Both the position numbers and the translations under genes were made by a program. The notes under the pieces were generated by a model. It saw nothing but the letters and a program-made list of their open reading frames with translations. It was not told where the DNA came from and made no database searches. DNA of 61,792 bases, the filler included, from Asterionella formosa (taxonomy: Eukaryota), in NCBI GenBank assembly GCA_002256025.1. It is 23 parts of 23 records of this genome, joined end to end, with 100 filler letters (N's around TTAATTAATTAA, not from the genome) between each part and the next. Parts side by side here need not be neighbours in the genome. Positions count along the whole stretch, not along the records: positions 8,106 to 10,704 come from NKIB01015076.1; 22 more parts are not named here. One strand, given 5' to 3'. Below are positions 1 through 58,141 of this stretch, piece after piece. The number at the start of each line of letters is the position of its first letter. Position 1 is the stretch's first letter.

Positions 1-570
1 TACAGAACTTAACCGAGCTCGATAGAAATCCTAAACATATAATAATAACTCTGCCTTCCGAGGGATTTCTAGTTAGTACAGCACCCGGAAGTATGGATAG
101 ATGGATCTGTTCGAAATCATCCACATGATGAGCTTTTCTGATGTCACACCTGTCACAACATTGATTCACTGATGTTCGTATTGATCGTTCTTCCTACCAC
201 TAATGATTTGTGTGATTTTCCTGGGAGAACGGCCGGAGACATTCCTCGTGGACTTCGAATTTTATCTACCGGTCCATGGAGCACAGGAAATCAAATATTC
301 ATGCATAGCTTAAACTAGTAAAGTTGCAAAGAACGGCATCATCGTCCTCCTTTCCTCTATTTCCGAGTTCCATTTGTCACGTTGACTGTGTGCGGCTGCT
401 ACCGTTTTCCCGTACAGTGACAAGCCAGCGTTCCGGTGAGCTGCTCCAGGTGCATCATGTCTTGTTCGCAGGTAGTCTCCTCAGAAAAGGTGATCAACGC
501 AGTGAGCGTTCATACTCTAGCAGTCAAAGGCGATGAACCAATACCTGACAAGTTCTTGCTTTCGGCTAGC

Positions 571-1272
571 ATGAAGCGTTCTCATCTGAAAGATGCAACG
601 GTAAGTTTAGAATTAAGTTGTAGGATTCGTACAATCTGTTTCTCGGACTTCTTTTTCCTAACTACCCGCAATCAAATCAATTCCAATGAGAAGTTGGTAT
701 CCATATCTGTCGACAAAGTTAAGGCGACCGCTACCGAAACTGACGTTGTGAAAGGCCGAACAGTATTAACGAGCCATGCAGGAAAATTAGGTACCATTGT
801 ACTTGCAGTCCGACGGCCTGGGTGCTTTTTTTGTCGCGAGCAAGCTCTTGCGTTGAGTGTGATTGATGCTCAACAAGATCTTGCGAAGGACTTTGGGATT
901 GTAGGGGTGGTGAAAGAGACAGTTGACCAACAAGGAGTTGTTGACTTTCTCGACAAATATTTTCCCTATCCACTCTATTGTGACAAGGCTTTTGCATTCT
1001 ATCAAGCTCTGGGAGACAGAAAGATTAGTGCAAGGCTTGTGTTGAACCCAAAGGCCATTGCAGGAATCATGTGCGAAACTTATCTTCGTATGACGTCGAC
1101 GGGCACATCAGCTGGGAATTTGAAGGGTGAGGGTTTCACATTAGGAGGGATTATTGTGTTCGATAATAACGCTAAGGCAATGTACGCATACGAAGAAGAA
1201 ACTGGTAAGGAATTTCCAGTCAAGGAATTTTTAGCCGTCGCGAATGCAATACGTCGTGAGAAAACGGCATAG
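571..1272 (+). CDS. Peroxiredoxin-like 2A (AhpC/TSA_2, FAM213A-type) thioredoxin-fold protein; probable intron 601-~690/693
   Basis: Family motif AVRRPGCFFCREQA (CxxC) and C-terminal GNLKGEGFTLGG. ATG at 571, GTAAGT donor at 601, CTAAC branch site near 658, in-frame AG acceptor at 690 or 693. Confidence 0.85.
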   Translation: MKRSHLKDATVSLELSCRIRTICFSDFFFLTTRNQINSNEKLVSISVDKVKATATETDVVKGRTVLTSHAGKLGTIVLAVRRPGCFFCREQALALSVIDAQQDLAKDFGIVGVVKETVDQQGVVDFLDKYFPYPLYCDKAFAFYQALGDRKISARLVLNPKAIAGIMCETYLRMTSTGTSAGNLKGEGFTLGGIIVFDNNAKAMYAYEEETGKEFPVKEFLAVANAIRREKTA

Positions 1273-1718
1273 ATACAAATGATCTTTTTTATGGGCCAAC
1301 CATCATGTCAATCATCGTACTTTTCAAACCAAGCTGAATGACTTATGCGTCAGTGAACCCCCTCCCCACGTAAGACTTGATCTGGTTGATTTTGAATAGC
1401 AGAATCACATCATCCTGGACCGCTCGCTACGCGCCCTGGGGGTACCGAGGCCAAGAGCACCCAAGAGGGAAGAAATGGAAGTTTTAACTTCACCAATACA
1501 CTACACAACTATGAAGACCCTCGATGTTGCGGCAACGTCGCCAGGATAGATCATCAGAAAACAAGAACATAAGGTGCCAGTACTAGAAGGGAAGTAGAAG
1601 GAAACATGAAACATTATTAAAAAATTCCAGACACAAAATCTATTCTTTCGCTGACAAATGAAGTCATCATTCCGCCCGCGTACGAACAATTACTGTGTAT
1701 GTGACGATATCGTTGCAT

Positions 1719-2508
1719 TTACTTGGTTTGGTTCTTGACCCCCTCAATACGAGCACGAATGGCATCTTGGTCTCCCAGGTAGCGTCCCTGAAGAGGGGCA
1801 ATGGCAGTAGCGCTAGGGATGACCTTGAGGTTCTCATCGAGTTCGTAAATAAGAGGGGTTCCTGTAGGAATATTGAGTTCGGAAATAGTTGCCTCATCGA
1901 TTCCGTCCAAATGCTTAACCAAGGCCCGCAAGGAATTCCCATGTGCAGCGACAAGGACAGTCTTACCAGCCTTCAACTGAGGGACGATCTCGTTTTCATA
2001 GTAAGGCACGACACGATCCAACGTTGTGGCAAGAGACTCGGTAAAATTTTCCGCGAACTCGAAACCAGCGTAACGAGGGTCATTCGCAGGGTGATGTTCG
2101 CTGGTCTTGTCAACAGTAGGTGGAGGAATATCATAGGAACGGCGCCACAACAATACTTGGTCCTTTCCATACTTATCAACAGTCGCCTGTTTGTCTAGTC
2201 CTTGAAGGGCACCATAGTGACGTTCATTGAGTTGCCATGTCTTTTGGATTGGAATCCACATGAGCTCTGTCTCTTCCAGAACGTGCCACAAAGTGCGAAT
2301 AGCTCTCTGTAGGAGAGATGTGTGTGCAACGTTCGCGATAATCCCTTCTTTCTTGATCAATCTTCCAGCTTCAATGACTTCTTCAGTACCCTTGGGAGAT
2401 AATGGGCAATCGTACCATCCTGTAAACTTGTTCTCCAAGTTCCAGGTGGACTCTCCGTGTCGCACTAGGACCAAGGTGTGCTTGTCAGCAGCTTGAAACG
2501 CAGCAAAG
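1719..2508 (-). CDS. gpmA: 2,3-bisphosphoglycerate-dependent phosphoglycerate mutase (dPGM), last exon; 5' part off contig
   Basis: Motifs LVRHGESTWN, LNERHYGALQG, WRRSYD, AAHGNSLRAL and LNIPTG. A TGTAG acceptor ends at 2509 on the minus strand. Confidence 0.95.
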
Positions 2509-2601
2509 CTACATAACGTTGGCAGTAATGATAATTGCAACCCAGAGTTTTGATGGTTACAAGAATGTGTCAGATCGTTGGGATACATAGACACAACACA
2601 A

Positions 2602-2701
2602 NNNNNNNNNNNNNNNNNNNNNNNNNNNNNNNNNNNNNNNNNNNNTTAATTAATTAANNNNNNNNNNNNNNNNNNNNNNNNNNNNNNNNNNNNNNNNNNN
2701 N
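2602..2701. other. Artificial contig linker (first of 22): N44-TTAATTAATTAA-N44
   Basis: The same 100-nt spacer, with stops in all six frames, recurs about every 2.69 kb (2602, 5306, 8006 ... 59113). ORFs ending in 'XXXLIN' are linker artefacts. Confidence 0.99.
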
Positions 2702-2781
2702 TATAAGGAAATCTACACTGGACTTTCACAAAAGAATCGATCTGAATATGAAAGGCAGGAATCCTAGTGGAATTGCTACTC

Positions 2782-3051
2782 CCACCACAAATATCATCTA
2801 CCCACACTCATACTTCTCATTTCCCAACGTAAGTGAAGAGGATATACATCAATATGTTGAATCACTTCAACCAAATGTTCCTGAAAGGAATATTGATTAT
2901 AATGACCGCATTAATCAACGGGACATTGATGACGATGTTGATTTTGAATGGATCTAATAGAATCCAATGCATACTTAGTAGTTACATAATAATTATAGTT
3001 AGTGTGAGACTTCTACAATGCAAGCCATATCATAGATGATAGGAAAACATT
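2782..3051 (+). repeat. Dispersed repeat (~270 bp), second copy at 53854-54125; carries the 3' end of an unknown ORF (...DDVDFEWI*)
   Basis: The two segments are near-identical by direct comparison. Both contigs also carry Plavaka-like transposase sequence. Confidence 0.9.
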
Positions 3052-4340
3052 TATTTTGCTCTATCCTGATGACTTCTTGAATGTCACTCTCCCATCTTGC
3101 AAAGCACTGCTTACATTCTTGGTGATCCAAGTCAATGTCACTTTGTACCATATGCATGCCATTGCTGATGAAATCTATGTCAACCCTCCTTGTCCCCAGC
3201 ATGGTCATCATGATGGCTTAACTTCAAATCACTTTACTTGTCATGGAGCTATCAGTTCATACAAACCTGGGTTTGGCACATTGGTCACATATGATGATTT
3301 ACCTGCTACCATGGTACTCAATTCAACTTGGAATAGGTTGCCTCCTTATGTTATGAATTCAATAGTACAGAAAATGGACGACTGCAAACTGAGCCTCTGC
3401 ATGATTTGCATTTACCAAATCAATGAAGTTGCCTACACCAAAAAAAAGATACTGACAATCACCACAATGTTCATCAATAGCATTCTGGATATTGCTACCT
3501 ACTTCCCATGTCACCACATGTCGTACCATACTAACATGTACCATGTCATACCCAATCTCCACTACTATCTATACCAATTTTTTTCTTGGTATCCACCATC
3601 TCTCATTGGGACATCTTCTTTGGTATAATCCAAATTGTTAGTGCAAATTCTACACTGGAAATGTTTAGGCATCCTATTGGCGAACTTATGATTTACAGAG
3701 TTGTCTTTGTTTTCCTGTATGAATCTCACTGGAAGGTTCATACCATGGCAGTTGTACCTCATGTAGATGATTGCTCAGCTCTTTGGATTGTTGGAAATCC
3801 TACTTTGATTGATATTGATGTTCACCTCCGTCTGCAAATAAAAACATCCATATTCCTATGATGCATCATAGGATTATGATCATCTGATCATAATTTTTCG
3901 TTATATCATCTAATAATTTTGATAAATGCCCTCGTAATTTAAATAGTAACCCTTTTGACTATGGAAATTTAATTATTATATGTATTGTTTCTTTTAGTTT
4001 CCTTTATTCAAATTTCTTGGTAGGATAATGTACCGGTTAGAGTAATGTTGTTTGGCTCATCATCCTCGCCAGTCCTCACTCTGATTCTTGCAACAACGAC
4101 AAAGCAGCCTTGTCGAGAGGAACGAATGTTTGTGATAAAATCTTCATTTGTCGTTCAAGTCATCATATGTCTTCGATGAATCATCATCTAGTACATTGCA
4201 CAGTATGTTCGTACTATGCAATCCGTTAAGAGCTTGAAAAGAAATCCAATGAAAACGAAATGGCTCATCACACAAGACGAATATTTAGTATGCGAAACTA
4301 TATTGTTACCAGTATCATTTATATTATTCTTATATATTTA

Positions 4341-5305
4341 TCAACGTTCGCTTGTTAGTTTTTGGTCCCATCCGATTGATTTCCATAAATTACGTGGAGG
4401 CATGGCAACATAAAAATTATCTTTCCGTATCTGTTTCAAAACTTCTTGCGGTTTCAGAGATTTCCTTGATTCCTGTGGTTTCAAAGCAGGAACAACAAAT
4501 GCTGCCGAAAGTATGTTATGAAATTCAACAACGCTCAATTCAGTTGTATCATTGCATAAGGTGTCTCCTCTTGCAAAAAACATACGTTTATGAATTTTCA
4601 TTTCAGTTGAACTTTTCAAGGAACAAATACACGCTAAAAGAATGATTGTTGAGTTGGAGAAAATAACATTTCCCCAAAGAAGAAGTTTTGCAGGAATTGT
4701 GTAGAAACTTGATCCATCTCCCTTTTCCCAGTTCACTTCGACCCAGTCAAACCATTCACGACCAGAGATTCCTGCCTTTGAATCATCATTCCATTTCGGA
4801 TGGCATCTGAAAATAGTAGTTTGGCTGGGAAAATTACTTTTAATTTTAACATGATAAAAAAAGTCAATCCTTACAATGGAAACAGGCCCAATCCCATCTT
4901 CAAGACTTTTGATTTTTGCTATTTCTATTGCTTAATTCGCAATGCTCTTTACGTAGTTGGCCCCCTTCGGTAAATCAGGATGAACCAATTGAGACAAGGG
5001 TGCATCCTTACTCCGTGATACATGCCCAATCTTATTAGGGACACCTGCTATAGTCCACTTTACGACGTTCACATCCAATATCAGGATTATCAGCATCCTC
5101 AGTTGAAACCAGGCAATCACGACAAACATATCGTCGATATAATCCATTACCACCCCTGAAGCCACAAATTTTATTGTGTTCTTCTGTATCACCAATGATC
5201 ATTCCAACTTGGAAATAAACTTTTGTCATACCAAGATCATGAACCCAAATATCGTATGACTTGTTTGGATCTTCGAAAGGCGACAATAGAAATCCTGTAA
5301 CAGAA
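4341..5305 (-). mobile_element. Plavaka-like DNA transposase relic with an internal deletion
   Basis: 5050-5305 encodes IIGDTEEHNKICG..CRDC, nearly identical to 55560-55820. It then jumps directly to C-terminal motifs IFRCHPKW..WFDWVEVNW..IPAKLL..AFVVP..PPRNLW. Stops and frameshifts are present. Confidence 0.7.
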
Positions 5306-5779
5306 NNNNNNNNNNNNNNNNNNNNNNNNNNNNNNNNNNNNNNNNNNNNTTAATTAATTAANNNNNNNNNNNNNNNNNNNNNNNNNNNNNNNNNNNNNNN
5401 NNNNNTAACTAGAAGTAGTAGTATTTGTTGAATATATGAGCTTATTTGTTAATCCTTGTGTGTAACTCGTTCTCCAAGTCGACACCAAAGTATACAATGA
5501 GGGTTAGTCGAGTTCTCTCATTATTGAGTTCTTATACATACATGATATAACACTAACCCTATATACATCTGTATTGATGCGCAAGATCGCTCACATGGGA
5601 CTTGCAGAAAATGAGAAATTTAGCCAATGTTTCTTTATAGTAAGAACTGTCTTCGAACGCAAATCCAATAGTATCGGGGATCGGGCGTACCAGGGTACCA
5701 GGTACCAGTATATATACAAGTAAAGGTAGCACTATTCCAACAAGGGCACTGTCAGTGTGCTCATGTTTCCAATTTGTAA

Positions 5780-7420: not shown

Positions 7421-8105
7421 AAGAGCATCGCCACCGCATCGACCAAATACCAAGCCAATTGAAGTTGCGGGTCATTACACGTCATGATGCGTTGTTTTGG
7501 TCGAAAAAGCAAAAATATTTTAGCCACCGCATCGACCAAGACCAAATATGCTTTGGTCTTGATCGAGGATGACCCCCTTATCGACCAAATATCTGGTATT
7601 TGGTCGATTAGACTCCGACTGTAGCCAAATAAAAGGAGCATTTCTATTGGTTTAGATTGTGGTTCGCGCCGGCAACATAACGTCAACTGTTTCATTGATC
7701 CACAAACGCTTACAATACACATTTACCTTACTCTCTTGATGTAGACAAATAATAAACTTAAGTACAAAAACCTTTGAATAATACCGGCAGCTATCTATAA
7801 AATATTGTCCTTCGAGTCTTCGACGATCCCAGTAGGATATCGTCATCCATTGTTGTCAAAGCAGGATGCTACATGGGAAGGAGCAGCAGGAGCAGCAGGA
7901 GCAGCTGCCAACGAGGATGATTCATTGTCGGTTTCAGACAGAACCAAAGTTGGATTATTTTGGCGCTGTCAAGAGCAACAATCGATAGCGATATGCGAGT
8001 TTCGTNNNNNNNNNNNNNNNNNNNNNNNNNNNNNNNNNNNNNNNNNNNNTTAATTAATTAANNNNNNNNNNNNNNNNNNNNNNNNNNNNNNNNNNNNNNN
8101 NNNNN

Positions 8106-8465
8106 GAAAGTGGTATACCTTACATAGTGTTGGGGAAAATCTTTGGTTTTGTATTGCTTGGGCCTGAATTTGATTTTACTGATCCACGATTGTGTGCATC
8201 ACTCCGCAACGAAACAACTGGAATCTTTGCAATTGTGAACTCATGTAAGGATCCAAGTGAGAGTTTATTTAATAGCCGTCGTTCTAAAATGTTTGAGATA
8301 GCACACCTGATGGGTTATGAATCAGGAAAGAGAAAACAGCTCATGTTTGTTACAGTCGATTGTATTTCTGCTCCTGCTGTTGTTGTCCCTAATATTGGAG
8401 GAATACCTGGGTCGGTATTACAAGTTAAACCTCAGCATACTTGGCAATCTTTTTTCTCATTTTGA
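8106..8465 (+). mobile_element. 3' end of a Plavaka-like transposase
   Basis: GKIFGFV...FVTVDCISAPAVVVPNIGG..LQVKPQHTWQSFF has the same motif order as the C-terminus in contig 2 (PAKLLLW...VVEFHNILSAAFVVPAL..VAMPPRNLW). Confidence 0.55.
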
Positions 8466-8623
8466 GATTCTAGATATGCATGCACACAACACAGCATTAC
8501 TAGTTATTTCTTTTAATATACATATTAGCTACTGGTAGCTATATGTATGAACGTCATAACGTCAATACCCACATTAAATTTGTAGACTGTAATTTCTTCT
8601 GGATTCGTGCACCTTATTCAATC

Positions 8624-9103
8624 ATGAGTGCCTCCCGAACCCCCAACGCGTTGTCTGCTCGGAATGAAGATGAAGACCGATCTCTGCAGACGAGTGATCT
8701 CGTTTCCGTATGGAAGGGTAATTATTCTGGCGAAATTTGCCAGTTTGTGTGCTACACGAAGGCCAAAGCGTTGGTCAATGTGTACAACAGGGTCTCCAAT
8801 AAATCAGTTCTCGACCATGCCCGGAAGCCTTCCGAAATCAAGAAAATCGTTCCTTGAGACAATACTTCTCCTTTGTTACCTGAATACTTCGAATCAATTT
8901 TGGAGGATGAGGTCTGGATTAAGATCAAGATTGATCAGATTGCCGCACAGTTCGTTTCTTGTGGTCTAAATCACGAATCGCCCATTCTTCTCGATTATTT
9001 TCGTGATCGTCTGTATGCCGCACAACTTGAGTATACAGAAGTAAGCGACCGCGCATTAGCCGCGACTCTTGCTTCAGAAGAGCAGAATAGTATTAATAAT
9101 TAG
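8624..9103 (+). pseudogene. Small TE-associated ORF with a KOW-like motif, broken by one in-frame TGA (8855)
   Basis: ORFs 8543-8857 and 8873-9103 are in the same frame. DLVSVWKGNYSGEICQFV resembles a KOW motif. Confidence 0.4.
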
Positions 9104-9316
9104 TTGTCTTACTTCAAAATTGAATACCAATTCTTTGTTTGTAGTCAAAGAATATATTATATCGGTAAGTATAAAATATAACTCAATGCATTGAGTTACC
9201 GGTAATACATTTGCCCCATTTTACTGAATCCATTTCTTCTTAATAGTACCATAATAGCAGTGATATCTGTCATGTTGTAAATTATGTGACATATCATTAT
9301 GCAAAATAACTTACTG

Positions 9317-10310
9317 ATGAGCAACAATGGTGATCTCGAGCAGCCTACGTGCATCCCAACTTGGGAGAATGATCCCCATTCTTCCAGTCCCACTTCCTGA
9401 GAACACATATCGGGTTGTGGTTAAATGGAGACTTCGAGTACTGCTTGATCAGCATCGTGACCACACTCACCGTATTTTACTTCGTCATTTCCTACAAGGT
9501 CATGTCGAAGATACCGTGAATGCGGACCTTGATAGTTTATTGGACGTCATGTTTAGGAGACTGGAGTCAGTGAATTTTTCACCTTTCATTAAAAGAAGGG
9601 TGGAAAGAAGATTGGATGGCATGCACTTGTTATTGATCATAGCAATGTCAAGTTTGCTAGAAGCTTTGTTGATGAGGTTTGGCCTTCGAACCAATGTGAC
9701 CGCATTAAACATCTCAACATTTTCTTACCAAAAGTTGCAGACGCAATGAAAACTGTTCATTTGATTATTGATGATGATTTCATGCTACAGATTGAAGGAA
9801 AATATCTTCCAAGATATTTTTGTTGCATTTGTTTCTCCTCCCGGACCAATTTTTCGGAACAAAAGATTGTCCTTTTCTTGACCTGGGCTTTAAACAAATT
9901 TTGGGGCAACTCAGAAATGATGAGGCTACTAATTCACTCATCAAGAAAACATTCGGTTCTAAAACTATACTCTGTCGTGATTGCTATAGGCAAATGACAG
10001 GCAAGAATACATTACTTTCCAACAACATCGACATGTTTTGGAAAACTTTGTCTATGGTCATTCCCGGTTCTGTGCTGCAATCACTTGTAAATGACGCAAC
10101 ATATGTCAGGAAGAGTATGCCTCACACCTGTACATTTTTGCACACTGCTGTAAATCACTCTAATGTTCCTCAGGAGCCACATTTTGACTATCAGCATGCA
10201 TAATTGGTAGTCAATGACTTCGAAAAGTGCCTTCCTTGGGGATTGGATATGTCCCTAGGTGCTGATGGTTTCTCTATAAATGTCTGGGATGGCGAGTCTT
10301 TTGAGTCTAA
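9317..10310 (+). pseudogene. 2OG-Fe(II) dioxygenase-like gene, frameshifted and 3'-truncated; paralog of 56951-58140
   Basis: Motifs LPDQFFGTKDCPFL, PHTCTFL..PQEPHFDY (HxD) and PWGLDMSLGADGFSINVWD are collinear with the contig-22 copy. The distal His is absent. Confidence 0.6.
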
Positions 10311-11281
10311 CCTCATTTTAGATCTAAAAGGTAAATGACAAGCGGAATGAATGTTTGCGATAACGTCTTTAATTTGTTGGTCAAGTGATCTTTATATCTT
10401 CGAGTAATCGTCATGTGCAGTGAACCTTTGTTCATAATCAGCCATTCAATTAAGAGTTTACAGGAGAGAAGAAACCATTCGAACTCGTAATGTTTCCGCA
10501 CACAGCGCACAAAGATATCCGTTTCGTCCACTTCAGCATGATAATCTCGCCAATCAACCCGAAAACAAACACATTCTACTTGTTCTCGTTGACATTTTCA
10601 ATTCTCACATGATACTACATCTACTATTGAGATTCAGCATAGAAGGAGATACGAAAATGTGCGTAACAGACTACTGTCCACATAGCTATAGTTATAGAAT
10701 GATTNNNNNNNNNNNNNNNNNNNNNNNNNNNNNNNNNNNNNNNNNNNNTTAATTAATTAANNNNNNNNNNNNNNNNNNNNNNNNNNNNNNNNNNNNNNNN
10801 NNNNCAAGAGAGCGAAAGCGAGTGGCTCTTTTCATTGTTGTTTGCTCGTAGGAAGAATTTGATATCTGTATCGTCATTTGCTTGTTGGAATTGTCCGTTG
10901 CCTCAAACTTGCTTGGCGTGTGCGTGCACACACTGTCGACTTGTTTTCAATGGTATGTTGTTCTTGCATTCACTGTTGAACTTGTCCGTATCTTTGTTAC
11001 CATGAATAGAGCGACAAGTGGCAGACGGGGATACAACCTTCCTCGCTGCTTCCCAATTCAAATGGTACCACCAGAATGCAGCAAAGTTTTCTTCCCATTC
11101 ATGATCCTTGGGACTTTGTCAGGTTGTGGCGTTCTACCCCCTGCTCCATAACCACAGCCACCCTGTCGCGGGCCTTTGCAACGCACGATAATGGGTGATG
11201 CACCAAATTTTTCCGGTATAATAGAGGGGGGGGGNNNNNNNNNNCCCCCCCCCCCCCCCAGTGCTTTGACTTTCACAGTCT

Positions 11282-11404
11282 CTCTACAGAGCTGCAACAG
11301 AAAATAATAGGGAAAAACATAGTACCACCATAACCGTACATCGCAGCCTCTACAGAGCTGCGACAGAAAATAATAGGGAAAAACGTAGTACCACCATAAC
11401 CGTA
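11282..11404 (+). repeat. Two direct copies of a ~57-bp unit (period 66 bp)
   Basis: CTCTACAGAGCTGCRACAGAAAATAATAGGGAAAAACRTAGTACCACCATAACCGTA occurs twice, next to a poly-G/N/poly-C gap. Confidence 0.9.
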
Positions 11405-11668
11405 AGTGCTACTTAAAGGTGCTGATAAAAGATGTAGACGTACTACCTGATACCGGTAGTAACTCGTCAGCCTGGCTAATTATCGCGCCAGTTAAATTCA
11501 TAAAAGCAATATTATGATAACTACCGGGTAGGTATGCCGTGCATCAACACATCACGAGCATTGGATGTCTCCAATAGTACTTAGAAGTGCTGTCTCTAGT
11601 GGCAGATCACAATGATTTTGTTGTTTTAACAAACTACGTGTTAACTTAACTTTTGCTAAACAACAACC

Positions 11669-12794
11669 ATGTGGGCTAATCGACACAATTCTGCATCGTT
11701 GTCTGATACAGACTACATACCAGACAATCCTGCATCGGATGGATACGACGATTATCAACTTGAGGAGTATAATGAATCGGAAGAGAGAGTCAAAGAAGAT
11801 GGGAGGTTGACGGCTGAACAAGAAAGAGATAAACTCCAAATTCTATTGTCTGAGAGTACACAGGAAATCAAGCGCCTACGTGAATTAGCAGCTGAAAACA
11901 ACCGTTTAACAATTGGAGTAGTAGGTGGAATTGGCCGGTGCAAACATTGGACAAACCTTCTGGCTAGCTGGGTCAGAGAGGAATTGTTTCCAAAAGTTAA
12001 ATTCGTCACAGGTGATTATGATTTGGAAATGAGGGAACCCGACAGCATTGCTGGTGCTGTTCGTTATCATTTCCCATCACTCAGAAATGGTACTGACGAA
12101 GAGTTTGAATCATTTTGGTTCACATATAAGTGTGACATCAACAAAAATATGTCTGAAAAAAGGAATGCTGTTTCAACATCAATCAGAAAGGGTTTCAAAA
12201 GCAAGTTCAAAATGAGGTGTCGTGCTTGCTGTTGGCTTGTTCCTTTTCCAAACAATACTTAATTAGTATAAAAACAGGAATGGTTGAGGATGGAAAGTTA
12301 CAGTTCCTTTCCCGGAATACAATTGTTCAGTCCAGGACAGAACCACCAGATGTTGGTAAAGTTGAAGAGCATCCCTTCATTATTTTAGTGAATTACATTT
12401 TTTCTCGGGTAGTGAAGTATGGTGATTATGCTAGCCAAAAAAACAAAAAAATATGGCCTCCATCATGACTGTATCGGATGAAGCATATGCCTTGCTTGTC
12501 TTAGAAAATAGTTGGGATGTATGGACCCAGAACTATACAACTGGGGATACTGGTAATGAAATTGCTGGCAGTGATGGTGGTTCAGGTGTTTTGGTGAAAT
12601 GCCTCTATACAAACCATGGAGGAGTTGGCAAACGGTATGGAGGGTGGGAAACAAAGGGTTATGCAAGGTTCAATACAATTTATGATCAAGTCGAGCACCT
12701 ACATGAGTCTGCAAACAGCATTGCTTTGGAGTCTATGTTCATGAATATGCAAAAGAAGGATACAAATGTGACCAAAATGGGAGGTAAGAAATGA
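11669..12794 (+). pseudogene. Member of a repetitive 'SDEA(F/Y)ALLxLEN..GW' protein family, probably TE-borne; candidate intron ~12201-12278 and a frameshift near 12450
   Basis: WVREELFPKVKF, TVSDEAYALLVLENSWDVW and YT...RYGGWETKGYARFN are spread over three frames. Confidence 0.55.
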
Positions 12795-12881
12795 ATTGTT
12801 ATTATTAATATTAGTATTATTCTCATTTACTAGCTAACACTAATGTAATCACAATTCTAATGTGGGTAAGTTCTTGCTTAT

Positions 12882-13403
12882 ATGCCACCAGTGATTAGGG
12901 TACAAAACGACCTGGGGAAGGCAAAAACTCCAAGTACCGCTAGTATCCCTCCCACAGCCTCTTCAATTGGCGATCTTTCGGGCACTTCACCAGCAACTGA
13001 AAGAATCAGCACCCCCTTAAGAAATCCAATTCGTGTTGATGGTTCTTTCCCACGGCCACCCAATGTGGCCTCGCTACCAACAATGGAAGGAAATGTGACA
13101 CCATCAGAAAATGAACTTAATGGGATGTCAGGAAGTTCTATTAAAAGCTTATCAAATCGCTCACAAAGTTTGACTAAAACACCCACTACTTTAAACCAGG
13201 TGCAAGTTAACTGGAAATCATCGTTGGACAAGGATTTCATGAATTGTAAGCGCCAAGGAATGGCTATTCTGGTTATGGAAGCCATGACAAAACGTATGGA
13301 ACGTCATTACCTGACAGTTCCCAAAGAACACCAAGAGATGTTAAAGGCAAACAACAACTATAAAGCATTCTACCAGATGACTATGGAGGATCTCCATGAC
13401 AGT
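12882..13403 (+). CDS. 5' part of an unknown protein (Ser/Thr/Pro-rich N-terminus), runs off contig
   Basis: Open frame from ATG 12882 to the linker. Confidence 0.4.
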
Positions 13404-20474: not shown

Positions 20475-21492
20475 TTAGATAGGACCAAAGTCTAGGGGAA
20501 CTGAACCAGTAAATGAATTGTTACTCAATCCTAGTCCTCTGAGACTTGTTGTCAAAAGACCAATCTGAGTTGGCACTGGTCCTGTGAATCTATTGTTCTT
20601 TAGAGTAAGACCATAGAGTCTTGTCAAGAGTCCAATCTCTGTGGGAAGTGTGCCAGTGAAAGTATTGAAGGACAAATCTAGATAATTGAGACTTGTCAAG
20701 AGTCCAATTTCTGTGGGAAGTGTGCCATTAAAAGTATTGTTCTTTAGAATAGGACCATAGAGTCTTGTCAAGTTTCCAATCACAGGAGGAAGTGTGCCAC
20801 TGAAAGAATTGCTGTCCAAAGATAGAAACGTGAGACTTGTCAATAGTCCAATCTGTGAGGGAAGTGTTCCAGTGAGTGTAGTGGAGGACAAATCTAGATA
20901 ATTGAGACTTGTCAAGAGTCCAATCTGTGAGGGAAGTGTTCCAGTGAAAGTATTGGAGTCCAAGTATAAACCAGTGAGACTTGTTAAGAGACCAATCTCA
21001 GTCGGAAGTGTGCCAGTGAAAGTATTATAGGACATATATAATTCATCGAGACTTGTCAAGAGTCCAATCTCTGTGGGAAGTGTGCCAGTGAATATATTGG
21101 TGTCCAAATAAAGAACAGTGAGACTTTTCAAGTTTCCAATCTCAGTCGGAAGTGTGCCAGTGAAATAATTGTCATACAAATATAGAGAAGTGACAATTTT
21201 CAAGAGCCCAATCTCGGGCGGAAGGGATCCAACAAGTTGAGAAGAAATAGGTTGCAAATTAGTGATTTCTTTCCCACCTTCGCAATCTTTCTCAGCTTCG
21301 CAATTAATATTATTCCAATAACAAAAATCGTATTGAGAAGCAGTTCCATTATCTTGCAACCATGTATTTTTTGAAAGTGTATCACCAGTCGCATAATTAA
21401 ACACTGCCAAAGCATAGAATTGCAACAAAGTATAGTCTCTGGGCATATTATCTAGTGTCGACTGCTGCAACCATGACATTGCCAATTGTTGT
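20475..21492 (-). CDS. Leucine-rich-repeat (24-aa, plant-type) receptor-like protein, 5'-truncated
   Basis: N-cap (LQFYALAVF...W...FCYW..I.C) followed by about 10 repeats of NxFTGTLPTEIGLLTSLxxLxL, encoded as 72-bp tandem units. Confidence 0.92.
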
Positions 21493-23632: not shown

Positions 23633-24186
23633 CATCTAAGACGCGAAATACGCCACTTTTCGAAATTTCGTCTACGTATGAGTGTTAATTATGTGGTACT
23701 TCACATGCATAAATGCCACTCTTCACGTAAAAAAGATTACTTTTAACGGTTTCATGTGAAGTTTTAACTGTTTCATGTGAAGTTTTCACAATGAATTTTG
23801 AACGCGAGACTGAATTAGTTGATGTTTCAAATAATTCATTTGACTTTTCGAAATTTCGTTTACGTACGAGTGTTAATTATGTGGTACTTCACATGCATTA
23901 ATGCCACTCTTCACGTAAAAAGGTTACTTTTAACGGTTTCATGTGAAGTTTTAACTGTTTCATGTGAAGTTTTCACAATGAATTTTGAACGCGAGACTGA
24001 ATTAGTTGATGTTTCAAATAATTCATTTGAAAGTTCAACTAAGATCCTGCTCTTGAGGCTAATACATTCGCAACACGCATTTTACTTAATGAAATAGTAA
24101 GGATATTTGTGGTGTCTAATGTCATCCATCTGAGATCAAAGTTTTACGGTTGTACACATCACATGAAGAACTCACACTTACCGGTA
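23633..24186 (+). mobile_element. 'CATCTAAG' dispersed repeat family with an internal 188-bp tandem duplication
   Basis: Same sharp 5' boundary in copies at 40042-40330 (+) and ~28596-28904 (-). Units start at 23655 and 23843. Confidence 0.8.
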
Positions 24187-27645: not shown

Positions 27646-28595
27646 CAAAAACAAGAACTTGCTAATTCATCGAAAAGTGCACTTAAACAGTCGAAAAATA
27701 ATATTCAACCATCATCTAGTGCATTTTCTAAGCCCACTCCCCTTACCACTGATGATAATCCCTCCCCATCCCCACCAGACTCTTGCACACTTAATGACCC
27801 ACAAGGCAAGAGCAAGAAATGGTTTCTTCAACAAATGGCGATAAAGAGGACCAATCAGCAACATCAGTATCTTCTGCAAATAAAAAGTATCATGCATATA
27901 GGATCAAGGGTATTTTACACTTAGTGGCACAGTATTTTCATACTATGTAAGTCAATTAGCCAAATCATAAATGAAATTATTGGAAATTCGATTCTAATAT
28001 GGAACACTTAAACCCAAGAATAGTTATTGCTATCCCCTATGATAACCGTTTTTTGAACTCCGAGAAGGCTTTTAGGCCTAAGAAGGGGAACATCGGACCT
28101 TAGCTATTGGAGGTAAAAATCAGCTAAATTTATCGCAACCCTAATCCAAGAAATCGAAAACGTCTATGGCCAATAAGCTGAAATGACATGATTGGTAAAC
28201 ATCAATCTTCGAAAATGTTGTCAAAATGATCCTCCAATAGGGGGTCAAAAAATTCCAATAAGGTAAAAATTGGTCCCTGTGTTAACCCATCAATAAACCA
28301 ATAGAGGAGGCTTGTTGGGACATCGACACACACCATAAATATTTGTACTTCTCCTAAATTGAAGTTGTCTTTCGCAATGAATTGCTTACCCTCTAAAAAG
28401 TGTATCTTGAACTTTTAGAGTAATTAGTTATAATATCAACTACCGGTAGTTCCGTCTTGGAAATCACTATATGATTGTGAAAAATCACATGAAAACAGGA
28501 AGATTAATATTGTTCACTACAATAAGTGCACATGACATGATACGTGAAGAGCACAGCAACCAGAAACTGTTGATTTTCCAGCATGCCTGAAATAA

Positions 28596-28904
28596 GACAC
28601 CACAAATATCCTTACTATTTCATAAATGAAGATGCATGTCGTAAGTGACAAATCATCCATGATTTTGAAATGAATTATTTGAAACATCAAGCAACTAATG
28701 CAGTCTTGAGTTTTAAGTTCATTGTGAAAGAAACCTTACATGATGAACGCGGTAAAACTTCACATGAAATCGTTAAAAGTTACCTGCTTATTTATGGGAA
28801 GAGTGGCATTAATTCATGTGAAGTACCACATTTAATCAAAACTCCTATGTACTGGAGTAGATGAAATTTCGAAAAGAAAAGTGGCCTATTTTGTGGCTTA
28901 GATG
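28596..28904 (-). mobile_element. Diverged copy of the CATCTAAG repeat family, without the internal duplication
   Basis: The reverse complement begins CATCTAAGCCACAAAATAGGCCACTTTT and contains ATGAAATAGTAAGGATATTTGTGGTGTC, as at ~24090. Confidence 0.75.
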
Positions 28905-32365: not shown

Positions 32366-34955
32366 GCTAAGAAGGCTAACAATGGTGGAAAAATGCCTTA
32401 TGGTGCTATTTCTAGGACAGTATCAGCTAAGCAATGCATTTTCCCTTGGATATCTGTTAACCAAGTGAAGAATGAACTAAAACGAAGTGCTAAACTAGAA
32501 GTTAAGTCTAGTACTACTATGTATACTACTTCTGGTTCGTCCCTCTTTCAACCATCAACTGCAACCATGGTGTCTACATTGACACCTGACCATTGTGGCC
32601 CTACTAAAACCCAATTCTTGAATGCTGATGGCAGCTTTGCCTTGTTATTTCCCAGCAATCTCATTCATAATTCATATGAAATTGTCGAGGAGGAAGAAGA
32701 TGACAACAATGAAGGTGTGAGTGAGCATTATGATAGTCAGTTTACAATGGGCACTTTGGCATATGAAACTGGAAACAATGGTGTGCTTACCTGGGGAAGT
32801 TTGGAGGCAAATACAAACACAACGAAAACAAACAAGGAGGACATGAGTAATACAACTGTTGGTGGACGGCCCAAAGGTGCCACCATTGCTGCCACCATTA
32901 GCAACAAATCCCAGATGCAAAAAGCATTGAGTGAAGCAACAGATGAGTACATGAATAAAATGCTAGACAGCAAAAATAACAACAAACGTACCTCCAAAGG
33001 AACAATTTCTTTGATCATTGATGCTGCCAAGGAAAGGAATGGAATACCTGCTAATGTGAAGGTTAGTTTTGAAACAGTCAGAAGCAGAGCAGCAATCAAA
33101 ATAAAGAAGAGTGGTGAGGTTCAGAATGGTCAGCATCATATTAGCAAACATGGACATCAATCACCAATGAACGAGATTGAACCTTACCTTGTTGGACTCA
33201 TTCAACAACTTGCAAAAATGAGGGTCCCAATCTCTGTTTCTGAAGGACTGATGCTTGCCAACTCTTTGATTGCTGGTACTGAAACTATGGCAAAGGTGAA
33301 CAATAGGAGAGAAACAAATTGCATTCCATTCCAAATCAACAAAAAACCTGAACTTGGGAAATCCTATTGGAAAGGATTTATGAAAAGAAATGCACAGTTA
33401 GTTACAGCAAAGAAGGGAGTTAAGGCTTGAGAGCAAACGTGCAGATTGGTGTACGTACCAGTCCTTCTTGTCAATGTATAAAGACGTCTATAAAGAAATG
33501 GTGGCTGGAGGAGTTACTAGACGAAACCAAAGCAAACAATGGTACTCAAAAGAAGGGTTAGTTGTTGAGGAGCAGGAAGCGTTTGGGTTAGCAAGTGAAT
33601 ATGAGCTAATCAGACCTGACCGTCTCCTCTTTGTGGACGAAGTTGGTTCCAATACATCCCAAACAAAAGATGGCAACGTTGGTGGCGAAAAATTTCTTTG
33701 CATTGCAGGTGGCCGTCCTCAAATCCGGGCCTCGACCAAAGATGCACACTTTACTGTCCTAGGATTCACTGCAGCCAATGGTCAACCAATCATGTGCGCA
33801 ATTATTTTTGCCGCAAAAGCCCCGGAAGACGATTGGGTGTTTGGCCTAGCTCCGTTTGCTGCTTGGGAAGGAGAAGATGAAAACATACATGGCAACAGCG
33901 GAAAGGGAAAACGATATCCACAAGGACCAGTCTGTGATGTGGAAGGGAAACAGTTGCCTACATACTGCTGTGTGTCGGAAAACGGCTCAATCACTGCAGA
34001 GCTTCTGGTTGGCATGCTAAAGCACATGGATGACGCTGGCATCTTTCCTCGAAACAACGGGCCCCCACCATTCCTAATACTTGATGGACATGGGTCTCGA
34101 TCTGACATTTTGTTCCTTGAATACATAAACAACCCAGTACACAATTGGACAGTCTGTATTGGTGTTCCTTATGGTACAAGCTACTGGCAGGTTGGAGACA
34201 GTAGTGAGCAAAACTGTTGTTTCAAAATGAACGTCACAAAAGCAAAACGCAAATTGCTCACCTTAAAAGCAGATCACAGGCAAGAGCTTACAATTAACAA
34301 GCAAGGTCGACATTGTTGGACTGGGAATACGGCATGGGACAATTCCTTTGCAAATATTGCCACAAACAAGAAAGCAATTTATGAACGAGGATGGTATCCC
34401 CTGAACTATAATGTCTTGCTTCACCCTGAAATTCAACTAACCCAACCACAACAGAACATCAATGCGCCCACAGAGACTGCCACTCTCCCTCCTGATGAGT
34501 TAAACCTCCAAACTGGCTTTGCTGGAACAATTGTTGGAAGAATTAACGAGTTTTGCAAATGCGAGGATGTGCGAAATGGAATCGACCGGGAGGCCCAAGC
34601 TAGAAAGAGAAAGGAGACAGCGGATTCACACATTGAGGGACACAAGAAGAGGATAACAGCAGGACTACTGGCCTCTGCACAAACCTTTGCTCTTGGGCCA
34701 AATATTCTTGCTGCTACACTGGAACGGAAGCGAATTTCAGACATTGTCATTAGTACAAAAGAAACAAAAAAGCAACAAGAATTCAATACACTTCGCGGAA
34801 AAGTACTTACATTGAAGGAACAGAACAAAACAAAACAAAAGAACAGATGTCTGTGCCAGAATTGAAATTAATGGTGCGTTGGTACAAACGATCAGGTGAT
34901 TTGCCGGTTCCACAAACAAGGCAAGCTCTGATTACAAGATTCGACGACACCAATC
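32366..34955 (+). mobile_element. Pogo-like (Tc1/mariner superfamily, DDE_1) transposase, frameshifted near 33425
   Basis: CENP-B-type HTH (IEPYLV..MRVPIS..G..YWKGFMKRN) and DDE motifs LFVDEVG, FLILDGHGSR, YWQVGDSSEQN. Confidence 0.85.
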
Positions 34956-40041: not shown

Positions 40042-40330
40042 CATCTAAGACGCGAAATACGCCACTTTTCGAAATTTCGTCTACGTATGAGGGTTAATAA
40101 TGTGGTACTTCACATGCAATTATGCCACTCTTCACGTAAAAAAGATTACTTTTAACGGTTTCATGTGAAGTTTTAACTGCTTCATGTGAGTTTTCACAAT
40201 GACTTTTGAACGCGAGACTGAATTAGTTGATGTTTCAAATAATTCATTTGACTTTTCGAAATTTCGTTTACGTACGAGTGTTAATTATGTGGTACTTCAC
40301 ATGCATTAATGCCACTCTTCACGTAAAAAG
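40042..40330 (+). mobile_element. CATCTAAG repeat family copy
   Basis: Near-identical to 23633-23920. Confidence 0.85.
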
Positions 40331-56532: not shown

Positions 56533-56747
56533 TCCCTTCTTCCTCTTGTTTCAATACCCGGTCGGAACATGATGTGCTACTGTGAAACTGTACCTATTGC
56601 TACGTTAGTACTGTGAGACTGTAGGTTTGACCTACCAGCATTCCCTTCTTCCCCTTGTTTCAATACCCGGTCGGAACATGACACATGTACTAAGAAACTA
56701 TACCTATTACTACGCTGGTACTATGAAACTGTAGCTTTGCGCTACCA
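56533..56747 (+). repeat. Tandem repeat, ~109-bp unit, 2 copies
   Basis: TCCCTTCTTCCYCTTGTTTCAATACCCGGTCGGAACATGA starts at 56533 and 56642. Confidence 0.88.
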
Positions 56748-56950: not shown

Positions 56951-58140
56951 ATGGTTGTGAAGGGGGTACCGATTGCAGATTGTTCAATCAGGAAAAACGT
57001 GTTTCTATGGCGCATTTTATGTCTGTTCAAGAGACAACGGAAAAGTAAGGAACGACTCTTACTGGTTAGATACTTTGATCATGATGACAAAGGCAAGGAG
57101 ACGAGGCTAGATGACAGTGTCCTGGATTTTGTTCTCAACCAGTTCTATTTAGTCCTAGAGTCTGGCTTGTTTAACAAAACATCATTTGGAACTTCAAGGA
57201 AATTTCGGAATCATATAGGACCAGCGATGAATTATGGAAGACTCACTTTCCTCGAGATTTTAGACTACATCAGAAAGACAACAATATGCCGCCAAATGCA
57301 GCAGAGATAAAAGACTTCCTATGTTTCATCACTGATTCATTACAACTAATCAAAACAGTTCTGAGAACAGATAACTTCCTTTATGTTATCGACGGAATTG
57401 AACAAGAACGCGTGTTTTTCCTCAATCTATCTTTCCTTCCAGATGAGTTTTTTGGAACAGAAGAAAAAGACGATCCATTTTTACATGTGGCAAAATCTTT
57501 TTGTACTTCCGAGAAAATCTATAACCTTCCTCTTCATTTGTTGAAACAAACATTCAAAACAACTGCATAATACAAAGAACTTGCAAATACTATGGAAGGA
57601 AAAGCCATGCAAGTCAGTGTTTCCTTTCAAGAATTATACTGACAGCTTAAAATATTCAAAGCTGGATCTGCCAAATGTATAACCATTTTGGCATATGATA
57701 AAGTCATTGTTACTACCAGGTTCCAATGATGTCTCCAGCAATAATGACAGAGTTATACCGCACACTGCCACTGTGTTGTTCACCAATTCTGGAAAGAATG
57801 GCTACCCAAAACCTCAGAAACCACATCAAGATTATACACCAACAGAATGCGAAAGGGAAACACCTATGTCTTGGGGAATGATAATGTCGTTGTCTTTAGG
57901 AGGGAATTGATTAAATATATGGGATAACTGTGCAGATGAGAAACATGCAATACATTTGTCCACACCATTCAAATTCATCTTTCTCATTCATGGAGATATA
58001 GTCCATGGAGGAGCTTTGGATAATAGTAAAAAAAATGGTGCTCTTCGGATTCATTTCTATTTATCGCCAGCTATAAAACAAAGAAATGGACACACTGTCG
58101 CCAAACTGAAACGACAAGATAACAACATACACCCTGATGG
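56951..58140 (+). pseudogene. 2OG-Fe(II) dioxygenase-like (DSBH) gene with frameshifts and stops
   Basis: PQKPHQDY (HxD), SWGMIMSL..G*LNIWD, LIHGDIVHGG (distal H), GALRIHFYL (R). ORFs 57695 and 57956 are in frame across one TGA. Confidence 0.72.
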
Positions 58141-58141
58141 A

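What the first reader, a model, noticed from the sequence alone, without database searches (positions are those of the whole stretch)
8106..10310. Plavaka-like transposon carrying a 2OG-Fe(II) dioxygenase-like gene in a probable diatom
Seen: within one contig, a transposase C-terminus, a KOW-like ORF and an HxD dioxygenase-like ORF lie compactly on the same strand, and the two downstream ORFs are disrupted. A divergent paralog at 56951-58140 retains the full HxD..H..R set. Established: in fungi, Plavaka and KDZ transposons are linked to TET/JBP 2OG-Fe(II) dioxygenases that oxidise 5mC, and diatoms methylate TEs at CpG. Inference: this may be an analogous but distinct TE-encoded base-modifying or anti-silencing module. 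The motifs (QxPHxDY, VHGG, RIHFY) look more PhyH-like than TET/JBP-like, so the substrate is unknown.
Basis: partly seen in the sequence, partly recalled or inferred. Interest (0 to 1): 0.75.

Follow-up and report, generated by a model that had tools for sequence, protein, structure and literature searches.

The report
Decayed Plavaka transposon carrying a dioxygenase gene
This stretch is a broken copy of a very abundant jumping gene of an unidentified freshwater alga that carries, next to its transposase, an iron-dependent oxygenase gene of a family with no database name, a cargo type already seen on related elements in fungi and red algae.

Summary
The window is 23 unrelated ~2.6 kb contigs joined by N/TTAATTAATTAA linkers; 8106-10704 is one of them.

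- **Transposase:** 8106-8462 is letter for letter the last 119 residues of a 930-aa protein with a Plavaka domain (PF18759, E 1e-10).
- **Downstream genes, same strand:** a ~160-aa ORF with 31 relatives, and a gene whose intact form is 457 aa.
- **Fold:** a modelled relative gives a Fe(II)/2-oxoglutarate dioxygenase fold. The nearest structures are PhyH-type (FtmOx1, Z 12.0). H-x-D, the distal H and R are conserved.
- **Linkage:** an independent 8.5 kb metagenome contig (L001) has an intact transposase followed 385 nt later by the intact dioxygenase gene. The element's 5' end (CATCTAAG...) lies on two other window contigs.
- **Decay:** the window copy has two frameshifts, a 51-nt deletion and two nonsense codons, and is truncated at 10348. 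The paralog at 56951-58141 is also broken.

Not supported or untested: the KOW label, the diatom origin, the 3' end and target-site duplication (TSD), and any anti-silencing activity. The gene also occurs in other upstream contexts.

Precedents exist: TET/JBP on fungal Plavaka, and PAG3 on red-algal Plavaka. I rate it a new variant of a known kind.

The parts
8106..8465 (+). C-terminal 119 codons plus stop of a Plavaka-type transposase gene. The contig starts inside the gene.
   Evidence: 100% identity over 119 of 119 residues to residues 812-930 of P0075. P0075 and the L001 ORF carry PF18759. 98.7% nt identity to L001 3073-3533.
8466..8623 (+). Variable spacer between the transposase and ORF2. 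Other copies carry deletions here.
   Evidence: Joints that skip about 191-196 nt (8548/8553/8554 to 8745-8750) in X1 and X10 contigs. L001 lacks window 8567-8680.
8624..9103 (+). ORF2: accessory gene of about 160 aa, function unknown, with an in-frame TGA at 8855-8857.
   Evidence: Translation. 31 relatives at 51-95% identity. Alignment A2 has W at the TGA position. At 8857, G replaces A in about 96% of X1 depth and in all of X10. No Pfam family.
9327..10348 (+). Pseudogene of a 457-aa Fe(II)/2OG dioxygenase-like accessory protein (codons 1-358). It keeps the PHFDY (HxD) motif and lacks the distal His and the Arg.
   Evidence: P0076 and P0077 at 82-83% identity. Lesions mapped against L001 and against reads. 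Fold evidence on relative P0017.
10349..10704 (.). A different repeat that abuts the truncated gene. It is not part of the intact gene.
   Evidence: X10, X15 and X17 contigs leave the window at 10348 and continue with the rest of the gene. 10443-10704 lies upstream of the gene in an X17 contig. No match in L001.
11028..13403 (+). Separate contig that matches the module lying downstream of the dioxygenase gene in L001. Its ORFs have no Pfam family.
   Evidence: 97.8% identity over 2057 nt to L001 5758-7808, and 89% to L001 5527-5814. L004 also joins the dioxygenase tail to this module. No Pfam hits.
23633..24186 (+). 5' terminus of the element (CATCTAAGACGC...) with a 187-nt subterminal tandem repeat. 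It runs into the start of L001.
   Evidence: Similarity to 40042-40330 starts exactly here and the upstream flanks are unrelated. TRF finds period 187 x 2.0. Window 23928-24186 is 98.5% identical to L001 1-263.
40042..40330 (+). Second copy of the same 5' terminus, in a different flank.
28564..28904 (-). Diverged copy (74-77% identity) of the terminal region in the opposite orientation. It is either a related element's end or a 3' TIR region.
   Evidence: 3 mismatches in the first 16 nt.
56951..58141 (+). Copy B: a divergent paralog of the dioxygenase-like gene that keeps HxD, H and R but is also a pseudogene. It lies on another contig.
   Evidence: 34% identity, E 4e-12. tblastn with P0076 over residues 110-449. 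Relatives P0003 and P0046 at 79-90% identity. Stops seen.

Best explanation
Contig 8106-10704 is a decayed, 5'-cut copy of a high-copy cut-and-paste DNA transposon of the Plavaka lineage (related to EnSpm/CACTA) in an unidentified eukaryotic alga.

Shown, element layout: a 5' terminus CATCTAAG..., 187-nt subterminal repeats, a transposase of about 930-1006 aa, a variable spacer with ORF2 (about 160 aa, unknown function), a 457-aa accessory protein, and a further module of unnamed ORFs.

Shown, accessory protein: it has the double-stranded beta-helix fold of Fe(II)/2-oxoglutarate dioxygenases. H-x-D, the distal His and the Arg are conserved. It is nearest to PhyH-type enzymes, although no Pfam model detects it.

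Inferred, mechanism: the intact protein binds Fe(II) and 2-oxoglutarate and hydroxylates or demethylates a substrate for the element's benefit. My best single guess is a chromatin-associated substrate (DNA base or chromatin protein) at or near the element, so that host silencing is weakened. This would parallel TET/JBP on fungal Plavaka and PAG3 on red-algal Plavaka. I put about 0.3 on that specific function, against about 0.7 on 'element-borne active 2OG dioxygenase'.

The window copy cannot make the enzyme.
For: Transposase:
- Exact C-terminus of P0075, which carries PF18759.

Recurring linkage:
- L001 holds an intact transposase ORF (412-3432, 99% to P0075) and the intact dioxygenase ORF (3817-5190) on the same strand, 385 nt apart.
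- Independent contigs bridge the window's own ORF2-to-dioxygenase junction at 9325 (X10 record 13, X15 record 21).
- The L001-type junction appears as loose ends in X10 and X15.

Repetitiveness:
- 37,565 contig pieces of run X1 lie on the 2.6 kb at 90-100% likeness.
- The 90%-identity clusters hold 118 sequences (transposase) and 116 (dioxygenase).

Terminus:
- Two copies have identical ends and unrelated flanks, and the terminal region continues into L001.
- CATC... resembles the PlavakaB termini CATCA..TGATG (PMC12730594, passages).

Fold (AF2 model of relative P0017, pLDDT 57.5 overall and 67-89 in the core strands):
- Foldseek gives FtmOx1 at E 2.1e-5; 114 matches have E<=1e-3, and the top rows shown are Fe/2OG enzymes.
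- VIA gives Z 12.0, 203 residues aligned, rmsd 4.2.
- Q264 and D269 are invariant; H267, H342, R356 and H358 are present in at least 90% of 21 sequences.
- H342 and R356 fall in predicted strands 341-346 and 354-361.
- The Atlas leads point the same way.

Expression hint:
- RNA-library contigs in X15 and X17 (the latter polyA-selected) carry the frame-restoring letters.
Against: - The 3' terminus and TSD were not found, so 'inside the element' rests on recurrence, not on boundaries.
- The dioxygenase gene also occurs with other upstream sequence: L002 and L003 have 706 and 310 nt upstream without the transposase end, and the X17 RNA contig has yet another arrangement. Breakpoints sit within about 25 nt of the start codon.
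- The contigs are short-read assemblies of repeats, which can be mosaic.
- In run X1, the likely source sample, only about 1% of depth has the frame-restoring A at 9590 (983.9 of 113,170) and very little has the G at 9796. Most copies there share the frameshifts, so the enzyme is not needed in cis for amplification.
- dN/dS between copies is only mildly below 1, on small counts: 0.46, 0.42 and 0.72.
- No Pfam 2OG family hits any of 21 members, and no PDB sequence match was found.
- The model's confidence is moderate, and prolyl hydroxylases score within about 1.5 Z of the PhyH-type hits.
- Nothing here bears on the substrate.
Confidence: 0.7

Rival explanations
1. Passenger capture. The dioxygenase gene is a host-derived gene that the transposon, or a recombinant of it, picked up. 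It is multi-copy only because it rides along, and it does nothing for the element.
For: Most copies in run X1 share the two frameshifts, yet they are abundant. dN/dS between copies is 0.42-0.72 on few changes. The gene is found in several contexts.
Against: The family keeps its catalytic residues across subfamilies that are only 14-36% identical. Intact 457-aa forms dominate in three other runs and in L001-L003. Only 42 relatives turned up among 1.84 billion representatives. The 10 looked up carry either no name or 'hypothetical protein', and none came from a named-genome source. That is not what a widespread host enzyme looks like.
Confidence: 0.15
2. Separate mobile cassette. The dioxygenase gene, perhaps together with the downstream module, belongs to a different element or a free-moving accessory cassette. 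It sits next to the Plavaka transposase through nested insertion or recombination.
For: Upstream breakpoints cluster at L001 3794-3815, just before the start codon, with at least three different upstream sequences. The downstream module also has variable neighbours. An 82-nt tail of the gene recurs 3.3 kb downstream in L001. Red-algal Plavaka accessory genes are reported to move between TE families (bioRxiv 10.1101/2025.02.11.637652, passages).
Against: The same order and strand (transposase, ORF2 piece, dioxygenase) occurs in two independent assemblies. No second transposase or recombinase was found next to the gene in L001.
Confidence: 0.12
3. Assembly chimera. The adjacency of transposase, ORF2 and dioxygenase in the window is an artefact of assembling repeats.
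For: All sequences are short contigs from repeat-rich samples. The window contig switches to another repeat at 10348, and contigs from other runs do not follow that junction.
Against: L001, from another assembly, has the same order with intact genes. Contigs of runs X10 and X15 bridge 9325. The transposase-to-ORF2 junction is shared by the window and L001.
Confidence: 0.03

Closest known systems
Giant Plavaka elements of red algae with accessory genes PAG1-3 (Bostrychia moritziana; bioRxiv 10.1101/2025.02.11.637652, passages read)
   Same: A Plavaka transposase plus accessory genes on one element. PAG3 is a putative 2OG-dependent oxygenase with no Pfam domain, and its best HHpred hit is 2OPW_A (E 0.016). 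By my recollection, from no call, that entry is a PhyH-domain protein. The authors also note that the accessory genes are mobile between contexts.
   Different: PAG3 is described with a ParB-like N-terminal domain and adjacent arrays of inverted repeats. Here the N-terminal ~128 residues are only predicted helical and of unknown fold. No PAG2-like methylase or SET gene was found: no Pfam hit on the downstream ORFs. The element seen here is at least 8.8 kb, against 17-19 kb. Homology to PAG3 could not be tested because no PAG3 sequence was at hand.
TET/JBP-carrying Plavaka (PlavakaB) and KDZ transposons of fungi (PMC12730594, passages read; Iyer et al. 2014 known only as cited there)
   Same: A DNA transposon of the same lineage carrying a Fe(II)/2OG dioxygenase as its accessory gene. 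PlavakaB termini begin CATCA, and here the terminus begins CATCT. The proposed role there is escape from methylation-based silencing.
   Different: The enzyme here is not TET/JBP by sequence (0 of 21 members hit any Pfam 2OG family). Its nearest structures are PhyH-type small-molecule oxygenases and prolyl hydroxylases. The host is an alga from freshwater samples, not a fungus.
PhyH-type Fe(II)/2OG dioxygenases (FtmOx1, AsqJ, PrhA, AndA, SnoN, KanJ)
   Same: The fold match covers model residues 129-373 (Z 10.6-12.0). H-x-D, H and R appear in the canonical order.
   Different: PF05721 does not detect the family. There is an extra N-terminal region and a long insert between the HxD and the distal His in some members. 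The genomic setting is a transposon, not a biosynthetic cluster.
VANDAL transposons of Arabidopsis with the anti-silencing protein VANC (as cited in the Bostrychia preprint)
   Same: The concept: a DNA transposon that encodes a factor acting on its own chromatin state.
   Different: The proteins are unrelated. No evidence here of sequence-specific binding or hypomethylation.

Membership tests
Plavaka DNA transposon (CMCT / EnSpm-related) | Transposase matching PF18759 above the gathering score | tested here: met
   P0075: E 1e-10, 41.8 bits against a cut-off of 26.3. L001 ORF: 41.6 bits. The window holds only the last 119 residues, outside the domain, but they are identical to P0075.
Plavaka DNA transposon (CMCT / EnSpm-related) | Terminal inverted repeats 5'-CA..TG-3' (PlavakaB: CATCA..TGATG) and a 2-3 bp target-site duplication | tested here: inconclusive
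   The 5' end CATCTAAG... is defined by two copies with unrelated flanks. A diverged inverted copy lies at 28889-28904. No 3' end of the same element and no TSD were found.
Plavaka DNA transposon (CMCT / EnSpm-related) | Many dispersed copies | tested here: met
   37,565 contig pieces at 90-100% likeness in run X1. The transposase cluster holds 118 sequences. Terminal pieces lie on three window contigs.
Plavaka DNA transposon (CMCT / EnSpm-related) | [quoted passage not shown] | not tested
   No alignment to reference transposases was made. By eye, P0075 has a CRECDC stretch.
Fe(II)/2-oxoglutarate dioxygenase superfamily (DSBH fold) | Double-stranded beta-helix fold | tested here: met
   Tested on relative P0017, not on the window copy. 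Foldseek: E 2.1e-5, probability 1.00. VIA: Z 12.0 over 203 residues. Model pLDDT is 57.5 overall.
Fe(II)/2-oxoglutarate dioxygenase superfamily (DSBH fold) | H-x-D/E ... H metal triad and a basic residue for the 2OG C5 carboxylate | tested here: met
   D269 is invariant; H267, H342 and R356 are present in at least 90% of 21 sequences. Copy B has all of them. Copy A has only HxD, because it is truncated at 10348.
Fe(II)/2-oxoglutarate dioxygenase superfamily (DSBH fold) | 2OG-dependent oxidation activity | not testable with these tools
   Needs purified protein.
PhyH (PF05721) | Match to the Pfam model | tested here: not met
   0 of 21 members at E<=10. P0076 has none at E<=0.1. Only fold neighbours and an Atlas lead (score 0.91) point to PhyH.
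TET/JBP (PF12851) | Match to the Pfam model, or TET/JBP as nearest fold | tested here: inconclusive
   No Pfam hit in 21 members. TET/JBP is not among the rows shown, which does not exclude a distant relation.
KOW motif (PF00467), for ORF2 | Match to the Pfam model | tested here: not met
   No hit for the window halves at E<=1. 0 of 22 family members at E<=10.
KOW motif (PF00467), for ORF2 | SH3-like beta-barrel fold | tested here: inconclusive
   In the AF2 model, residues 1-90 have pLDDT below 50 or close to it and are drawn as helices. Only the C-terminal helices are confident.
Red-algal PAG3 | Sequence homology to PAG3; ParB-like N-terminal domain | not testable with these tools
The profile search of PDB sequences gave no ParB hit.

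The most novel reading that the evidence does not exclude
This unnamed PhyH-like family is a transposon-specific enzyme, possibly the same family as red-algal PAG3. Plavaka-type elements of distant eukaryotes would then have recruited it, as fungi recruited TET/JBP, to oxidise a silencing mark (a DNA base or a chromatin protein) on their own copies. That would be a second, TET-independent class of transposon-borne oxidative anti-silencing enzyme with a substrate not yet described.
Probability: 0.18. Interest if true: 0.8.

Novelty: new variant of a known kind. Interest (0 to 1): 0.5.

Why it matters
Accessory genes on DNA transposons are rare, and the few known ones (TET/JBP in fungi, VANC in Arabidopsis, PAG1-3 in red algae) point to elements that edit their own chromatin.

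This finding adds a third host group in which a Plavaka-type element carries a 2OG oxygenase. It also supplies a compact, intact, apparently expressed 457-aa protein (P0076 type) that could be assayed directly.

If the family proves homologous to PAG3, the two observations become one widespread transposon enzyme family that no database names. If not, it is a further independent recruitment of a 2OG oxygenase by this transposon lineage. Either outcome bears on why these elements need an oxidase.

Tried and rejected
- **Pfam on the window's own pieces:** 11 pieces gave nothing meaningful (after a frame slip).
- **Pfam on family members:** 21 relatives of the dioxygenase gave no 2OG family. Two long hits of the representative search (P0022, P0042: fn3/Kelch/LRR proteins) look like chance matches; I left them out of alignment A1.
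- **Profile of A1 against PDB sequences:** only a peptidase M16 chain at E 0.54.
- **Own genome:** none is held.
- **Viral contigs:** no relative of the transposase or of the dioxygenase family.
- **ORF2 fold:** the AF2 model was too poor to search.
- **Selection test between copies:** dN/dS 0.46 (31 changes), 0.42 (10) and 0.72 (18). The counts are too few to decide.
- **Taxonomy from a RIO kinase fragment:** eukaryote only. The nearest clusters are labelled Basidiomycota and Bacillariophyta, so 'diatom' is neither shown nor excluded.
- **Transposase in the rest of the window:** tblastn with P0075 found nothing on contig B or elsewhere, the best other hit being E 0.27.
- **Depth profile along the contig in run X1:** not used as a copy number, as the tool warns.
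- **Earlier notes of this scan:** nothing on this genome or this sequence.
- **Paper searches:** 'diatom + EnSpm + dioxygenase + transposase' returned 0 papers. 'transposon + phytanoyl-CoA dioxygenase + accessory gene' returned 2 unrelated bacterial papers. These cover only the held library.
Full report
**What the window is.** The 61,792 bases are 23 contigs of about 2.6 kb, joined by N44-TTAATTAATTAA-N44 linkers. Only what lies on one contig is physically linked. The finding lies on contig A (8106-10704). The 'paralog' lies on contig B (56533-59112). No whole genome is held. Long standard-code ORFs with ankyrin, ARM, LRR, RIO, copia and gypsy domains show a eukaryote. An Atlas look at the RIO fragment could not place it further. 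Runs holding the stretch are labelled algae, freshwater or lake metagenomes. 'Diatom' stays untested.

**The three ORFs on contig A.**

- *Transposase.* 8106-8462 is 100% identical over all 119 residues to the C-terminus of P0075 (930 aa; its 90% cluster holds 118 sequences). P0075 matches PF18759 Plavaka at E 1e-10.
- *ORF2.* 8624-9103 is one 159-codon frame broken by a TGA at 8855-8857. It has 31 relatives of about 90-190 aa at 51-95% identity. Full-length ones go down to 56% identity, and W stands where the window has the stop. It is a real gene. KOW is not supported: no Pfam hit in 22 members, and the model is poor and mostly helical.
- *Dioxygenase-like gene.* 9327-10348 corresponds to residues 1-358 of the intact 457-aa P0076 (its cluster holds 116 sequences). 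Against the intact gene in L001, the window copy has 1-nt deletions after 9590 and near 9800, a 51-nt deletion after 10004, a TAA at 10201-10203, and no similarity after 10348. It therefore lacks the distal His and the Arg.

**What the third gene encodes.** A phmmer search of 1.84 billion representatives with copy B's C-terminal domain gave 42 hits (11 at E<=1e-10). All 10 that I looked up come from metagenome-type sources. None carries a name beyond 'hypothetical protein', and none of the 21 scanned has a 2OG-related Pfam domain.

In an alignment of 21 sequences, Q264, D269, G294 and W300 are invariant. H267, H342, R356 and H358 are present in at least 90% (P0017 numbering). This is the order H-x-D ... 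H ... R that defines Fe(II)/2OG dioxygenases (established knowledge).

The AF2 model of P0017 has pLDDT 57.5 and pTM 0.62, with core strands at 67-89. Foldseek matched Fe/2OG enzymes of the PhyH type: FtmOx1 at E 2.1e-5, then SnoN, TlxI, KanJ and PrhA. VIA-align gave Z 12.0 over 203 residues (model 129-373) for FtmOx1, and about 10.3-10.8 for prolyl hydroxylases. The Atlas independently pointed to '2OG-Fe(II) oxygenase' (0.93) and PhyH (0.91) clusters. PF05721 and Tet_JBP do not detect the family.

So the fold and the catalytic motif are supported. 'PhyH-like' is a resemblance, not membership.

**Is it carried by the transposon?** A scan of metagenome contigs with P0076 returned 4 loci.

- *L001 (8,552 bp).* On one strand it holds an intact transposase ORF (412-3432, 99% to P0075), a shortened ORF2 remnant, and the intact dioxygenase ORF (3817-5190). 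A 3.3 kb module follows that is 97.8% identical to the neighbouring window contig 10805-13403.
- *L004.* It independently joins the dioxygenase tail to that module.
- *5' end.* The first 263 nt of L001 overlap window 23928-24186 at 98.5%. There and at 40042, the same sequence (CATCTAAGACGCGAAATACGCCAC...) begins abruptly after unrelated flanks. It is followed by a 187-nt tandem repeat. This is the element's 5' end, and it resembles the PlavakaB terminus CATCA (PMC12730594).
- *Diverged copy.* An inverted, diverged copy of the terminus ends at 28904.
- *Not found.* The 3' end and the TSD.

**Copies in sequencing runs (all Logan contigs).**

- 37,565 pieces of run X1, the likely source (0.84 of the sampled words), lie on the contig at 90-100% likeness.
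- In X10, X15 and X17, the contigs carry the frame-restoring A at 9590, a G at 9796 or a C at 9802, G at 10201 (GAA, not TAA) and 51 extra letters at 10005. They continue past 10348 with the rest of the gene.
- In X1, G at 10201 (about 99% of depth) and G at 8857 (about 96%) are the rule. The two frame-restoring insertions are rare (about 1% at 9590). The copies amplified in that sample therefore mostly carry an already frameshifted dioxygenase gene, and the window's two stop codons are private.
- Contigs of X10 and X15 bridge the window's junction at 9325. The L001-type junction also appears in X10 and X15.
- A 2,856-nt contig of the polyA RNA run X17 holds the intact gene in yet another upstream context. 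L002 and L003 show a further one without the transposase end.
- The gene is thus a module found in several arrangements, one of which is next to the transposase.

**Copy B.** It is 34% identical to A in the C-terminal domain (E 4e-12) and 31-34% identical to P0076 over residues 110-449. It keeps PHQDY, GDIVHGG and LRIHFY. It has two frameshifts and two in-frame stops. Its closest relatives are mostly fragments. No transposase lies on its 2.6 kb. From 58142 on, it runs into a repeat shared at 94% with contig 32366-34955.

**How it most likely works.**

- *Shown:* a multi-copy Plavaka-type element whose intact copies encode, downstream of the transposase, a protein with the fold and metal/2OG-binding residues of a 2OG dioxygenase.
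- *Inferred:* the protein is an active oxygenase made by the element. By analogy with TET/JBP on fungal elements and with PAG3, it acts on a chromatin-associated substrate to blunt silencing.
- *Open:* nothing here identifies the substrate. PhyH-type and prolyl-hydroxylase neighbours would fit a protein or small-molecule substrate at least as well as DNA. The abundance of frameshifted copies in X1 means the enzyme is dispensable in cis. Supply in trans from a few intact copies, or no role at all, both remain open.

**Comparison and novelty.** Plavaka was described in fungi with TET/JBP neighbours (Iyer 2014, as cited in PMC12730594). TET-carrying PlavakaB families are documented (PMC12730594, passages). 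Plavaka is reported across Archaeplastida (PMC13519894, passages) and as giant repeats in Amoebidium (bioRxiv 10.1101/2024.01.08.574619, passages). Red-algal giant Plavaka carry PAG1-3, and PAG3 is a putative 2OG oxygenase with best hit 2OPW_A (bioRxiv 10.1101/2025.02.11.637652, passages). Its supplements are closed, so I could not compare sequences.

My two targeted searches found no paper on such an element in diatoms. I therefore rate this a new variant of a known kind: real, well supported as an observation, moderately interesting, with the functional claim untested.

Noticed in passing
whole window (linkers at 2602-2701, 5306-5405, 8006-8105 and so on): The window is a chain of 23 unrelated contigs of about 2.6 kb, in roughly descending length, joined by N44-TTAATTAATTAA-N44. 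Features on different contigs are not linked.
   Followed up: yes
window 11028-13403; L001 5527-8470: The neighbouring contig is the module that follows the dioxygenase gene in L001. Its ORFs of about 204, 194 and 261 aa have no Pfam family. Its first 223 nt differ from L001, so this module too has variable neighbours.
   Followed up: partly
L001 5145-5226 and 8471-8552: The last 46 nt of the dioxygenase ORF plus 36 nt after it recur at 99% identity 3.3 kb downstream, at the very end of the contig. A different frame there also ends in ...SFLLDSYGERWK. This could be a shared last segment, a recombination scar or an assembly loop.
   Followed up: partly
L001 5294-5527: Two copies of a unit of about 144 nt (about 81% alike) lie directly downstream of the dioxygenase gene. 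This recalls the repeat arrays reported next to PAG3 in red algae, but there are only two copies and they are direct, not inverted.
   Followed up: no
window 58142-59112 and 32616-34865: The 3' flank of copy B is a 94% repeat of contig 32366-34955, which has 1.3 kb more. That contig carries two long ORFs (354 and 487 aa) with no Pfam family. It may be another uncharacterised element.
   Followed up: partly
window 56533-56747: Two direct repeats of about 105 nt (84% alike) lie at the 5' end of contig B.
   Followed up: no
window 40433-43015 and 59401-61791: Long intact ORFs of LTR retrotransposons: a copia-type RT (RVT_2), and a gypsy-type protease-RT-RNase H.
   Followed up: no
window 20540-21231 and 37745-38287: Many offset matches with a period of about 72 nt between two contigs. 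One of these contigs carries an LRR-domain ORF at 20478-21491, which overlaps its match region (20484-21231), so this is probably a repeat-protein gene family.
   Followed up: no
L001 3724-3816: Just upstream of the dioxygenase start codon and in frame with it, L001 reads ...VGVRVILINRETSSFVGKIGTVSYLGLKKS. This is a second G-x-x-V...G-K-x-G-x-V pattern like the one in ORF2, separated from the ORF2 remnant by a single TAA. Whether these belong to one protein in some copies is open.
   Followed up: no
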